Assembly (NCBI GenBank): GCA_040398005.1
Contig: JBBAUX010000002.1
Coordinates: 64,001-128,000, forward strand
DNA length: 64,000 nucleotides
Direction of reading: 5' to 3'
Source of the DNA: Opitutales bacterium
GTDB taxonomy: Bacteria > Verrucomicrobiota > Verrucomicrobiia > Opitutales > UBA953
Shown: positions 33,001 through 36,000 of the stretch, piece after piece
Position numbering within the stretch: the first letter of the stretch is position 1
How the letters are laid out: each line of letters starts with the position of its first letter
Program-made: the position numbers

Positions 33001-36000
33001 CTGGTATGAAGTGACCGGAGAGTTGGATGTTAAGGGTGCCTCGGCTGACGATAAGACAAAATTCCTGGCGAAGGGTCGCTTAACCGAAAAAGAATTCGAA
33101 GGTCTGCGCGGTGCGGTAGCCAAAGACGCCTTTAAAGAAGTTCCCGAACAGACGGGCTTAACGATGTTCCTTTATAACGTTCTGCCCACCTTACTGATTT
33201 CGGGCTTGGTCTTGTATATGATGTTTCGCTTTTTACGTAATGCGAACAAAGGCGCAATGCAATTTGCCAAATCCCGCGCTCGTTTAAATGCGAACGAAAA
33301 TGAAGGCACGACATTTAAAGATGTGGCCGGATGTGATGAAGCGAAAGAAGAAGTGAAAGAGATTGTCGATTTTCTCCGTGATCCCAAACGCTTCACCAAA
33401 ATGGGTGCGTCTATTCCGAAAGGAATTTTAATGGTGGGACCTCCCGGAACAGGTAAGACCCTTCTCGCTCGTGCCGTTGCCGGAGAAGCGAAAGTTCCTT
33501 TCTTAAGTATCAGCGGTTCCGACTTCGTTGAAATGTTTGTCGGCGTGGGTGCAGCTCGAGTTCGTGACACTTTTGAACAAGCCCGTAAGCTCGCTCCTTG
33601 TATTGTATTTATTGATGAAATTGATGCAGTCGGTCGTCAACGTGGCGCCGGTGTTGGTGGTGGAAATGATGAGCGCGAACAAACGCTCAACTCCTTGCTC
33701 GTGGAGATGGATGGTTTTGATGGTCAGGCTGGCGTCATTGTTATCGGTGCCACTAATCGTGCTGATGTTCTCGACCAAGCTCTCTTACGTCCGGGTCGCT
33801 TCGATCGCCAAGTCTTTGTTGATTTACCAGACTTGCGAGGCCGTGAAGCCGTTCTCGCCGTTCACGCTAAACGTTTCCAATTAGCTCCCTCGGTTGATCT
33901 AAATCGTATCGCTCGCATTACCACCGGAATGTCGGGTGCTGATTTAGCGAATTTATTAAACGAAGGTGCTCTGCATGCTGGTCGTCGTAATCGCGATAAG
34001 GTTGAGATGTCTGACATCGAAGAAGCCCGTGATAAAATTGCCTATGGTCGTGAGCGTCGTCGCGCGATGGATGAAGAAGATCGTCGCAGCACGGCGTACC
34101 ACGAAGCGGGTCACGCAATCGTGCAAGCGGTCGTTGATGATGGCATGATGCCTATTCACAAAGTAACGATTCTTCCTCGTGGTCGTGCCCTGGGTATGGC
34201 CATGTTCCTACCGAAGAAAGACATTCTCGGATATTCTAAGGCCCGTTTACTGACTTATATTTGTACGGCGATGGCTGGTCGCGTGGGAGAAAAAGTAGTC
34301 ACTGGCGATGTATCCAATGGTGCTTCCTCGGATATCAAACAAGCCACCCGCATGGCCCGTCAAATGGTCTGCGATTGGGGTATGAGCGAGCTTGGTCCTA
34401 TTTCTTATAACGAAAATTCTGATACCGTTTTCTTAGGTCGCGAAATTTCACGTACCCAATCACACAGCGATGAAACCGCTCGTCGCATCGACGATGCTGT
34501 TGCTAAAATTGTGAGCGAGCAATATGCCCGCGCCGAAAAAATCATTGCCGAGCACGCGGATGCCCATCGCAAGATTGCCGAAGCTTTACTCGAGCATGAG
34601 ACTTTAGACGGCGTTCATGTGATGGAAATTCTCCAGACGGGTTCGATGCAGACCCCGATTGTGGGATCACCTGTGCCTAACTTAGTTCGCGAGCCGAGCC
34701 CTGATGGTCCCCCACCAGAGCCAGGCTCACAAGCCACGCCGACCCCTGCTTGAGGTTTGCCCTCGAAGGTTTTAAGGCTTAGAACTCTGCTATGGTCATC
34801 GGACTCACTGGCGGTATCGGTTGTGGAAAATCCACGGCCGCCGGCTTTTTTAAGTCCCATGGTTTTGTCGTGATTGATTCCGATGTCTTAGCGCACCAAG
34901 CGCTCAACGAATCCCAAACACTCGCCCAATTGAAATCGCGCTGGGGTTCGGCCTGTATTCAGAATGATGGTACAGCCGATCGAGAGTGGATTGGTAAAAA
35001 AGTATTTTTTGATCCGACGGAGAAAATCTTTTTGGAATCCATCATCCACCCGCGCATTGCCGCCCTGCGGCAAGAGGCGATGGCCGATTCATCCAAGTCT
35101 TACATTCTAGAAATCCCTCTTTTATTCGAGTTGGGCCTCACTCAGGGGTTGGTCGCTACGGTATGCGTCGCGTCTTCGGATGAAGTCCGATTGCATCGCA
35201 TGGAATCCCGGGGGTTAAGTCGAGCTGAGGCCCAGAAGCGTATAAATTCGCAAATGCCTATCAGTGAGAAGGTTAAGAAATCAAATTTCGTGATTTGGAA
35301 TGATGGCAGCTTAGACTTTCTGAAAGTCGAAGTGGATAAATGTGTGCAGATATTAAAAGGCTAAGAATTGGCTGATTTCTGGATAGTTTGCGATTGCCGA
35401 GAGGGTGGGTAGATTTACTTTTCGATTTCCCCTATTTCTTCTTACCGAGAACTAGGTTCAATACCCCCCCCAACCCCATTTAGGAATCCCTACCCTGTGA
35501 CGACCGCCGACGATTTCGTCATTCAATTCATACAAGACAAGGGACTGGTGTCCTCTGCTCTAGTATCCGAGGCCCGCGAGGCGCTTGGTGCTATCCCCGA
35601 TGGCCAGAATCCCGATACCCTAGCGATCGCGAAATTAGTTGAGACCGGTAAGGTCACTTGGGCGGTTATCTGCAAAGCGCTGGGTAAGGAATTCGACATG
35701 GAAGTTGTCGACTTGGCCCAGGTTTCACCGGCGGAAGAATTACTCAAACTGATTAGTCGCGAGCAGGCTGAGCGTCATAATATTTTACCACTGCAAATGG
35801 ATGGCGTTGAGCTGCTCGTTGCGATTTCGGATCCGCTCGATACCGAAACGCTCGATTCACTTTCGCGTGTCTTAAAACTTACTTTAAATCCAAAACTCGC
35901 ACCGCCTGATGAACTGAAGGCCGCAATCAATCGCTGTTACAGTGGGGGCGCGGTGAATGTATCGTACGAGGATGTTTTTGGTAAGAGTGAAGATGGTATG

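What a model noticed while it worked through the whole genome (the two positions that open the first line are those of the whole stretch)
34792..35500. Transcription termination factor Rho is lost in this genome and its whole genus
No rho gene is found in this genome in six frames, nor in any of 34 other near-complete genomes of the genus UBA953, while all 22 near-complete genomes of three sister genera have it (mostly two matches); in a sister genome rho lies beside coaE, whereas here coaE (C2:98792-99364) is followed after 132 nt by pilB. Boldest reading: a free-living freshwater heterotroph lineage has dispensed with Rho-dependent termination and must silence antisense and foreign transcription by other means. 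New would be a recent Rho loss inside Opitutales with Rho-bearing sisters for comparison.
Evidence so far: Rho_RNA_bind PF07497: 0 matches here and 0 of 34 other genus genomes >=90% complete; 18 of 18, 3 of 3 and 1 of 1 in three sister genera, 0 of 5 in a fourth; control rings in 9 named bacteria. TIGR00767 (rho) here: best 23 bits at C6:73634 (an ABC-F protein), cut-off 509. PF00006, which Rho also carries: 0 here, mostly 2 (atpA, atpD) in relatives. Sister genome G089: Rho ORF (751 aa) at L188 about 8480-8700, coaE homologue (41% to g00386) at 9872-10420, same strand. NusA, NusB, two NusG present.
(Added by a program. Inside this text positions count along the whole contig: contig position 64,001 is position 1 of the stretch shown here. 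"Call 12" and the like, gene names such as g00115 and contig names such as C1 are that model's own, and its searches are not shown. The text may have been shortened before it was handed on; [...] marks where a part breaks off. The agent that wrote the report below was given it as the finding of a first reader that could run no searches.)

Follow-up and report, generated by a model that had tools for sequence, protein, structure and literature searches.

The report
Rho termination factor deleted in clade
This freshwater bacterium, its genus and the neighbouring genus have deleted both copies of the transcription terminator Rho, leaving a clean scar between two genes, which adds a new bacterial phylum to the few known to live without Rho.

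Summary
No Rho is found in G000, in 0 of 96 genomes of its genus (g1) or in 0 of 11 of a second genus (g5). All 30 genomes of the three other genera of the family have Rho, mostly as two paralogs.

RpoB and GyrB trees make g1+g5 one clade, so one ancestral loss explains the pattern.

The loss is not an assembly gap. In g2/g3 the order is coaE-rho-pilB-pilT-pilB-pilC. In 16 of 16 g1 and 5 of 5 g5 genomes it is coaE, a 98-133 nt spacer, then pilB, on uninterrupted sequence.

Independent DNA contigs and RNA-library contigs carry the same junction.

A survey of 2,730 complete genomes lists no Rho-less member of the PVC group. This is therefore a new member of a known kind.

I found no excess of canonical intrinsic terminators and no diagnostic purine-bias change.

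One lead remains. RNA polymerase beta-prime of g1+g5 carries two clade-specific insertions. Other Rho-less Opitutales lineages lack them.

The parts
32783..34753 (+). ftsH (AAA + peptidase M41). It is the upstream neighbour of coaE in g1 and g5 but not in g4.
   Evidence: Pfam PF01434, PF00004, PF17862. The serS-tilS-ftsH-coaE order is seen in g1/g5 loci.
34792..35364 (+). coaE (dephospho-CoA kinase). In Rho-bearing relatives it sits immediately upstream of the long rho paralog.
   Evidence: PF01121, 157 bits. coaE-rho adjacency: g4 18 of 18, g2 5 of 8, g3 1 of 1.
35365..35496 (.). 132-nt coaE-pilB spacer. This is the deletion scar at the place where the long rho lies in g2/g3. It holds a motif conserved across g1 and g5 (about 35387-35418) that resembles a -35/-10 pair. 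That reading is my inference.
   Evidence: Spacer length is 114-133 nt in 16 of 16 g1 and 98-109 nt in 5 of 5 g5. It is 2230-2775 nt, containing rho, in 3 of 3 g2/g3 loci. There are no N in contig C2. The tool's promoter scan did not list the motif.
35497..37212 (+). pilB-type ATPase (T2SSE + MshEN). It is the downstream neighbour of rho in G071, G062 and G067.
   Evidence: Pfam; synteny.
37222..38292 (+). pilT-type ATPase (T2SSE only).
   Evidence: Pfam.
38307..39992 (+). second pilB-type ATPase.
   Evidence: Pfam.
40014..41255 (+). pilC-type platform protein (T2SSF), last gene of the conserved block.
   Evidence: PF00482, 229 bits.
41282..41321 (.). Strong bidirectional hairpin with T-runs just after the pil block. 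It shows that this Rho-less genome does use canonical intrinsic terminators at some operon ends.
   Evidence: 18-pair stem with 8 G-C pairs on +, and the mirror site on -.

Best explanation
Both rho paralogs of the family were deleted once, in the common ancestor of genus g1 (the window's genus) and its sister genus g5. One is the long paralog, with an N-terminal insertion, encoded right after coaE. The other is the short paralog, which lacks the N-terminal part. At the long-rho locus the deletion removed about 2.2-2.7 kb between the coaE stop and the pilB start. It left a spacer of about 100-130 nt that all descendants share.

The clade, at least 107 species-level genomes, therefore lives without Rho-dependent termination.

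Shown: the absence, the scar, the single clade, and the presence of NusA, NusG plus a NusG paralog, and Mfd.

Inferred: transcripts end at intrinsic terminators where these exist (for example after the pil block). Elsewhere they end by read-through that is tolerated in a very compact genome, or by an undescribed route, as was recently argued for cyanobacteria. I put the real single loss at about 0.9. I put 'intrinsic terminators plus tolerated read-through suffice' at about 0.5.
For: - Absence: PF07497 in 0 of 96 g1 and 0 of 11 g5, against 29 of 30 in g2-g4. TIGR00767 at >=286 bits in 30 of 30 of g2-g4, and at most about 25 bits in g1/g5. Near-closed g1 genomes are also negative: G123 (8 contigs, 99% complete), G117 and G124 (about 10 contigs each).
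- Scar: coaE-rho-pilB-pilT-pilB-pilC in G071, G062 and G067, against coaE-spacer-pilB in 21 of 21 g1/g5 genomes. The sequence in G000 has no N.
- Independent data: DNA contig X5 record 20 covers 34493-35523. RNA-library contigs from two studies cover 34436-35836 and 33950-35741 at about 94-95% identity.
- Short paralog: in g4 (8 of 8 loci) and in G070 it sits directly upstream of a 593-aa gene. The orthologue of that gene in G000 (C7:24625-26394) and in 5 of 5 other g1/g5 genomes has no rho upstream.
- One clade: g1+g5 has SH-aLRT 100 in RpoB (30 rows) and in GyrB (25 rows).
- Context: 194 of 201 sampled Opitutales genomes have Rho, mostly two copies, including genomes of 0.8-1.0 Mb.
- Other factors present in G000: NusG and a paralog, NusA, Mfd.
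Against: - All genomes are metagenome bins and none is closed.
- G000 itself lacks about 6% of marker genes, including the ATP synthase, so G000 alone would prove little.
- The scar for the short paralog is less clean, because its upstream neighbour varies among g1/g5.
- The trees rest on single proteins and a quick search.
- For the mechanism: canonical terminators are not enriched. Genome-wide counts, real against reversed sequence, are 152 against 149 and 67 against 60 in G000 contigs C2 and C7. At 3' ends with a gap of >=60 nt, G000 has 79 of 302, against 29 of 86 in Rho-bearing G071 and 13 of 70 in G073.
- My terminator scanner had no positive-control genome.
Confidence: 0.88

Rival explanations
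1. Rho is present in these organisms but is systematically missed by assembly or binning, for example because it lies on a hard-to-assemble or oddly composed segment.
For: All genomes are bins. G000 misses a block with the ATP synthase. Long rho genes of relatives carry large low-complexity N-terminal insertions (open frames of 700-960 aa).
Against: - 0 of 107 genomes have it, against 30 of 30 in sisters assembled by the same kind of pipeline.
- The ancestral locus is read through without a gap in 21 of 21 genomes, and also in contigs from other studies.
- Several g1 genomes have only 8-10 contigs at 96-99% completeness.
Confidence: 0.02
2. A Rho homologue persists but has diverged beyond recognition, or a non-homologous RNA translocase has taken over its role.
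For: - Rho is labile in this family. G080 and G086 (g4) have a long Rho scoring only 295 and 286 bits, about 40% identical to other g4 Rho, and no normal short paralog.
- The RNA polymerase of g1+g5 changed markedly on the same branch.
Against: - The RecA-type ATPase core is what TIGR00767 and PF00006 detect best. In g1/g5 the only matches are at about 25 bits or less, in open frames that I take to be ATP-synthase and ABC-F proteins.
- No candidate replacement was identified.
- I made no systematic search for genes gained on the stem branch.
Confidence: 0.05
3. g1 and g5 lost rho independently (two events).
For: Rho appears to have been lost several times in the order. G148, G162 and G259+G303 also lack it.
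Against: - The two genera are sisters in two protein trees.
- They share the same junction, with the same flanking order serS-tilS-ftsH-coaE|pilB and a conserved spacer motif.
Confidence: 0.04

Closest known systems
Rho-less lineages of Bacillota (Streptococcus, most Lactobacillaceae, Negativicutes)
   Same: These are lineage-specific losses inside a phylum whose other members keep Rho, so Rho+/Rho- relatives can be compared (Moreira et al. 2024, PMC11347177, sections 24 and 26 read as passages; Nat Microbiol 2026, PMC13323073, passages and section 9).
   Different: - The phylum differs (Verrucomicrobiota, PVC group), and two paralogs were lost.
- Rho-less Bacilli show weakened purine bias and, per the papers, many intrinsic terminators.
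- Here purine bias does not separate Rho- from Rho+ relatives, and canonical terminators are not enriched.
Cyanobacteriota (whole phylum without Rho)
   Same: They are free-living diderm bacteria without Rho. In Synechococcus elongatus only a minority of transcription-unit ends look like canonical intrinsic terminators, and Mfd has a limited role (PMC13289151, abstract only). G000 likewise shows few canonical terminators and keeps Mfd.
   Different: The cyanobacterial loss is ancient and phylum-wide, with no Rho-bearing close relatives. Here sister genera of the same family keep Rho.
Two-rho state of the PVC group and Actinomycetota ('Group A' full-length plus 'Group B' N-terminally truncated Rho)
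   Same: The sister genera g2-g4 and most sampled Opitutales have exactly this pair. The long form has an insertion before the RNA-binding domain. The short form starts near model position 45-50 (PMC11347177 section 27).
   Different: g1 and g5 have neither copy.
Mycoplasmatota (Rho-less, reduced genomes)
   Same: Small genomes without Rho (PMC11347177). G000 is only 1.44 Mb and is very compact: about 95% coding by my crude ORF calls.
   Different: Genome reduction alone does not explain the loss here. Opitutales genomes of 0.8-1.0 Mb in the same order keep Rho, and g1 genomes of 2.3-2.7 Mb lack it.

Membership tests
Rho factor (is any gene of G000 a Rho?) | Rho RNA-binding (OB/CSD-like) domain, PF07497 | tested here: not met
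   0 matches at E<=10 in six frames of G000. 0 of 96 g1 and 0 of 11 g5. The control rings in 9 named bacteria.
Rho factor (is any gene of G000 a Rho?) | Full-length match to TIGR00767 (cut-off 509 bits), or at least a RecA-type ATPase core of the Rho/F1 kind (PF00006) | tested here: not met
No PF00006 match above cut-off. Sister Rho proteins give no tblastn hit at 1e-5.
Lineage-specific Rho loss (as in Bacillota lineages, Cyanobacteriota, Mycoplasmatota) | Absence in all members of a clade, with presence in its nearest relatives | tested here: met
   g1+g5: 0 of 107. g2+g3+g4: 30 of 30 by TIGR00767. g1+g5 form a clade. 194 of 201 sampled genomes of the order have Rho.
Lineage-specific Rho loss (as in Bacillota lineages, Cyanobacteriota, Mycoplasmatota) | Physical evidence of deletion at the ancestral locus, not a gap | tested here: met
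   coaE-rho-pilB in G071, G062 and G067, against coaE-spacer-pilB in 21 of 21 g1/g5 genomes. Independent contigs cover the junction.
Lineage-specific Rho loss (as in Bacillota lineages, Cyanobacteriota, Mycoplasmatota) | High share of transcription units ending in canonical intrinsic terminators (reported for Streptococcus and Mycoplasma) | tested here: inconclusive
   No enrichment over a reversed-sequence null. 26% of 3' ends with a gap of >=60 nt in G000, against 19-34% in Rho+ relatives. The tool scan of 19 kb gave 33 sites against 23.1 +/- 4.6 in shuffles. The predictor is crude, had no positive control, and no 3'-end data exist.
Lineage-specific Rho loss (as in Bacillota lineages, Cyanobacteriota, Mycoplasmatota) | Relaxed purine bias of coding strands after Rho loss (reported for Rho-less Bacilli) | tested here: inconclusive
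   rpoB purine excess is at or below +0.001 in 15 of 15 g1/g5 genomes and positive in 6 of 6 g4. It is also negative in Rho+ G071, G061 and G062. Genome-chunk medians do not separate the groups.
CoaE (dephospho-CoA kinase) | PF01121 over the full length | tested here: met
   157 bits, residues 1-174 of 190.

The most novel reading that the evidence does not exclude
Rho became dispensable in this clade because its RNA polymerase changed on the same branch. In g1+g5, beta-prime gained an 18-residue insertion about 35 residues before the zinc ribbon at the RNA exit side. It also gained a tandem duplication of about 60 residues right after the bridge-helix motif. In addition, beta and beta-prime fixed 18 and 20 replacements at sites that are invariant in all 15 Rho-bearing relatives compared, against 3 in GyrB. 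On this reading the altered enzyme terminates or pauses differently, which would explain why no extra canonical terminators are seen. The clade would then be a natural model of factor-independent termination in a compact free-living genome.
Probability: 0.12. Interest if true: 0.75.

Novelty: new member of a known kind. Interest (0 to 1): 0.5.

Why it matters
Rho is present in about 90% of bacteria and is essential in many. The latest survey of 2,730 complete genomes found Rho-less species only in Actinomycetota (2), Bacillota, Cyanobacteriota, Mycoplasmatota and Myxococcota (1). It found none in the PVC group (PMC11347177).

This clade adds Verrucomicrobiota to that list. It is an abundant, free-living freshwater lineage of more than 100 species-level genomes. 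Its close relatives keep both Rho paralogs, and the deletion is precisely mapped.

That makes a good natural comparison for three questions: what replaces Rho in silencing antisense and foreign transcription, how 3' ends form where canonical terminators are scarce, and whether RNA polymerase co-evolves with the loss.

It also warns annotators that a missing rho in these bins is real. It should not be counted as incompleteness.

Tried and rejected
1. Compensation by more intrinsic terminators. My hairpin-plus-U-tract scan gave real against reversed-sequence counts of 152/149 and 67/60 (G000 contigs C2 and C7), 165/134 (G123), 58/51 and 44/37 (G101), 148/154 (G073) and 98/60 (G071). At 3' ends with a gap of >=60 nt the counts were 79/302, 5/34 and 6/32 in Rho- genomes, against 13/70 and 29/86 in Rho+ genomes. 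There is no excess in the Rho-less clade. The scanner is crude, gene calls are simple longest-ORF calls, and there was no positive-control genome.

2. Purine bias and wobble purines as a signature of Rho loss. They do not separate the groups.

3. The NusG paralog as a clade-specific gain. It is also present in Rho+ g2 (3 of 4) and g3 (1 of 1). With this query it is absent only from g4 (0 of 18).

4. Beta-prime insertions as a general correlate of Rho loss. The other apparently Rho-less Opitutales genomes G259 and G162 have one continuous TIGR02386 match (positions 2-1146 and 2-1145). The N-terminal piece of G148 starts at model position 2. They have no such insertions.

5. Remnant of rho in the spacer. 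The spacer is too short for a protein search. By eye, the g1/g5 spacers resemble the g2/g3 flanks only near the pilB start.

6. RNA evidence. Only assembled contigs were on hand. They bridge coaE-spacer-pilB but cannot show a transcript, a strand or a 3' end.

7. Earlier notes of this scan. Two look-ups returned nothing.

8. Literature. Searches for the genus name gave 8 papers, none on Rho by title or abstract. A search for Verrucomicrobia + Rho + termination found no report of this loss. Supplementary tables of PMC11347177 were not read, and a PVC exception could be listed there.
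Full report
**The locus.** Window 34792-35364 (+) encodes a 190-aa dephospho-CoA kinase (PF01121, 157 bits). A 132-nt spacer follows (35365-35496). Then comes a block of type IV pilus-type genes on the same strand: pilB-type ATPase at 35497-37212, pilT-type at 37222-38292, a second pilB-type at 38307-39992, and a T2SSF platform protein at 40014-41255. 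Upstream lie serS, tilS and ftsH. Contig C2 has no N.

**Absence of Rho.**
- G000 is 1.44 Mb in 14 contigs and 93.9% complete. It has no PF07497 match at E<=10.
- It has no PF00006 match above cut-off, which also confirms that the ATP synthase is missing from the bin.
- tblastn with three long and one short Rho protein from sister genomes finds nothing at 1e-5.
- Across the family (137 genomes), PF07497 is found in 0 of 96 g1 (G000 included), 0 of 11 g5, 9 of 10 g2, 1 of 1 g3 and 19 of 19 g4. A separate draw of 61 g1 genomes also gave 0.
- TIGR00767 sees the ATPase core. It gives >=286 bits in 30 of 30 genomes of g2-g4. It gives nothing better than E=2.2e-6 in g1/g5, where the hits lie in open frames of 407-533 aa and of about 635 aa, which I take to be ATP-synthase beta and ABC-F proteins.
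- In a sample of 201 genomes of the order (>=85% complete), 194 have Rho at E<=1e-30, mostly two copies. These include genomes of 0.8-1.0 Mb. The seven without are three g1 genomes, G148, G162, and G259+G303. PF07497 is also absent from those four.

**Two paralogs.** Sister genera carry two forms.
- The long Rho has open frames of 627-960 aa and mostly scores 510-538 bits. Its RNA-binding domain starts only at residue 440 in G073.
- The short Rho is about 395-460 aa and scores 410-447 bits. Its match starts near model position 45-50.
- This is the 'Group A/Group B' pair already described for the PVC group (PMC11347177, section 27). Both are missing from g1 and g5.

**The scar.**
- The long rho lies directly after coaE in 18 of 18 g4 genomes in which coaE was found, in 5 of 8 g2 genomes and in 1 of 1 g3 genome.
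- In G061 it does not. G066 and G070 are unresolved because of short contigs.
- In G071 (g3), G062 and G067 (g2) the order is coaE-rho-pilB, continuing with pilT-pilB-pilC where the contig allows.
- In three other g2 loci (G064, G065, G068) other genes follow rho.
- In 16 of 16 g1 genomes (G000 and 15 fetched loci) and 5 of 5 g5 genomes, pilB follows coaE. The gap is 114-133 nt in g1 and 98-109 nt in g5, against 2230-2775 nt in the three g2/g3 loci.
- The flanking order serS-tilS-ftsH-coaE|pilB-pilT-pilB-pilC is shared by g1 and g5.
- So rho was excised between two genes that remain neighbours.
- The spacer holds a motif conserved across both genera (about 35387-35418). It resembles a -35/-10 pair with 16-nt spacing. 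The tool's stricter promoter scan does not list it.

**The short paralog.**
- It sits directly upstream of a 593-aa gene without a Pfam match in 8 of 8 g4 loci and in G070.
- Its orthologue in G000 is C7:24625-26394, 50-57% identical. It is preceded by lutABC-like genes and a 102-nt spacer without N.
- In G136, G117, G123, G092 and G101 the upstream neighbour varies but is never rho.

**Independent sequence.**
- The 10-kb stretch around the locus occurs in freshwater or lake metagenomes. 13 studies hold at least part of it. 7 runs from four studies hold half or more of its sampled words, two of which may be the source of this DNA.
- A DNA contig from another study covers 34493-35523.
- RNA-library contigs from two studies cover 34436-35836 and 33950-35741 at about 94-95% identity. 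They bridge coaE, the spacer and the start of pilB.
- Being contigs, they show the junction but not a transcript.

**One event.**
- In an RpoB tree (30 rows, four other families as outgroup), g1+g5 form a clade with SH-aLRT 100.
- A GyrB tree gives the same result. It has 25 rows: I left out G062 (no match), G127 (a stop in the match) and G058, G067 and G106 (partial matches).
- With the shared scar, one loss in the common ancestor is the simplest reading.
- The loss is not recent. G000 is about 80-81% identical to g5 in both proteins.

**How the cells cope.**
- NusG, a NusG paralog, NusA and Mfd are present.
- The paralog is not specific to the Rho-less clade.
- Canonical intrinsic terminators exist, for example a strong bidirectional one at 41282-41321 right after the pil block. 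By my scans they are not more frequent than in Rho-bearing relatives.
- There is none between coaE and pilB.
- Purine bias was recently tied to Rho avoidance in Bacilli (PMC13323073). It does not separate the groups here.
- The Rho-less genomes are more compact by my crude ORF calls. Only 18-24% of 3' ends have a gap of >=60 nt, against 53-59% in G073 and G071.
- A recent study of a cyanobacterium reports that canonical terminators explain only a minority of transcript ends in that Rho-less organism (PMC13289151, abstract). The same may hold here. This is inference.

**An unexplained correlate: RNA polymerase.**
- On the g1+g5 stem the RpoB branch is long: 0.34, against 0.16 for the g4 stem. 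In GyrB the figures are 0.18 and 0.23.
- I counted sites where all g1+g5 rows share one residue and all other rows are invariant for another. There are 18 of 1187 in RpoB, 20 of 1278 in RpoC and 3 of 813 in GyrB. The same count for g4 gives 2, 8 and 2.
- Two rows, G095 and G127, were left out of the RpoC alignment because the gene is split over contigs.
- All 13 g1/g5 RpoC rows, and none of the 15 others, carry an 18-residue insertion at G000 residues 38-55. The zinc-ribbon cysteines start at residue 91.
- They also carry an insertion of about 57 residues at about 840-900, just after the conserved motif that I recall as the end of the bridge helix.
- The second insertion is a tandem copy of the next segment: 35% identity over 63 residues, pairwise E=3e-9. 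This explains why TIGR02386 positions 784-850 match twice in 15 of 15 g1/g5 genomes and in 0 of 15 others.
- Against a causal link: G259 and G162, which also lack Rho, have an ordinary continuous RpoC match. G080+G086 have long branches in GyrB as well.

**Literature.**
- Moreira et al. 2024 (PMC11347177; passages and section 27 read) list Rho-less species only in Actinomycetota (2 of 464), Bacillota (148 of 487), Cyanobacteriota (33 of 33), Mycoplasmatota (100 of 100) and Myxococcota (1 of 12).
- They describe two rho genes in 30 PVC genomes.
- A 2025 review names the same Rho-less groups (PMC12360218, passage).
- My searches found no report of Rho loss in Verrucomicrobiota. I did not read supplementary tables.

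**Verdict.** This is a real, clade-wide, precisely mapped loss of both Rho paralogs. It is a new member of a known kind of event, in a new phylum, with useful Rho-bearing relatives for comparison. Interest is moderate.

Noticed in passing
G000 C11:21879-26216 (rpoC) and C11:18049-21849 (rpoB), outside the window; loci L082, L191: Beta-prime of all g1/g5 genomes examined has an 18-residue insertion before the zinc ribbon and a tandem duplication of about 60 residues after the bridge-helix motif. Beta and beta-prime have 18 and 20 clade-fixed replacements at otherwise invariant sites, against 3 in GyrB. Other Rho-less Opitutales genomes (G259, G162) lack the insertions.
   Followed up: partly
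G080:C30:35000-36205 (L049 7992-10037) and G086:C10:13170-14390 (L050 8358-10397): Two g4 genomes have a strongly diverged long Rho: 295 and 286 bits against more than 510, and about 40% identity to G073 Rho. It still lies after coaE. They have no normal short paralog (next hits 72-73 bits, 355-361 aa). Both genomes sit on long branches in the RpoB (0.52) and GyrB (0.30) trees.
   Followed up: partly
Genomes G148 (f13), G162 (f27), G259 + G303 (f15, one genus); G224 and G242 (f15) have weak matches only: Three further lineages of the order, at 92-98% completeness, show no Rho by TIGR00767 (E<=1e-30) or PF07497. These are possibly independent losses. Each rests on one or two bins.
   Followed up: partly
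G000 C7:24625-26394 (L062 7626-9395): A 589-aa protein with no Pfam match is the conserved downstream, same-strand partner of the short rho paralog in g4 (8 of 8 loci) and in G070. It is retained in the Rho-less clade, next to metG.
   Followed up: no
window 35387-35418: A motif conserved across g1 and g5 lies in the coaE-pilB spacer: a TTTGCG.TTGC-type box, then about 16 nt, then a GATTTA-type box. It may be the promoter of the pil block. The tool's consensus scan does not list it.
   Followed up: partly
whole G000: No PF00006 match is above cut-off, so atpA and atpD are missing from this bin, while close relatives have them. This is a real hole in the assembly and not a biological loss.
   Followed up: partly
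G000 C9:20728-21246 (L134 1405-1926): A NusG paralog (NusG N-terminal domain only by Pfam) lies between a cytochrome c assembly gene and a DUF386 gene. It is present in g1 (51 of 53), g5 (9 of 9), g2 (3 of 4) and g3 (1 of 1). It was not found in g4 (0 of 18) with this query.
   Followed up: partly
L042 (G064) and L043 (G065): In these g2 genomes rho is followed not by the pil block but, directly or a few genes later, by a homologue of the gene at window 41730-43004, which in G000 lies just after the pil block. The pil block seems to be lost or moved there.
   Followed up: no
L039 about 3990-4025 (G071, just after the rho stop): The long rho of G071 is followed by a textbook G+C-rich hairpin with a T-run. 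In this relative, rho itself ends at an intrinsic terminator.
   Followed up: no
G000 genome-wide; G123 and G101 against G073 and G071 (200 kb each): The Rho-less genomes look more compact. By crude ORF calls, 18-24% of 3' ends have a gap of >=60 nt, against 53-59% in the two Rho-bearing relatives.
   Followed up: no
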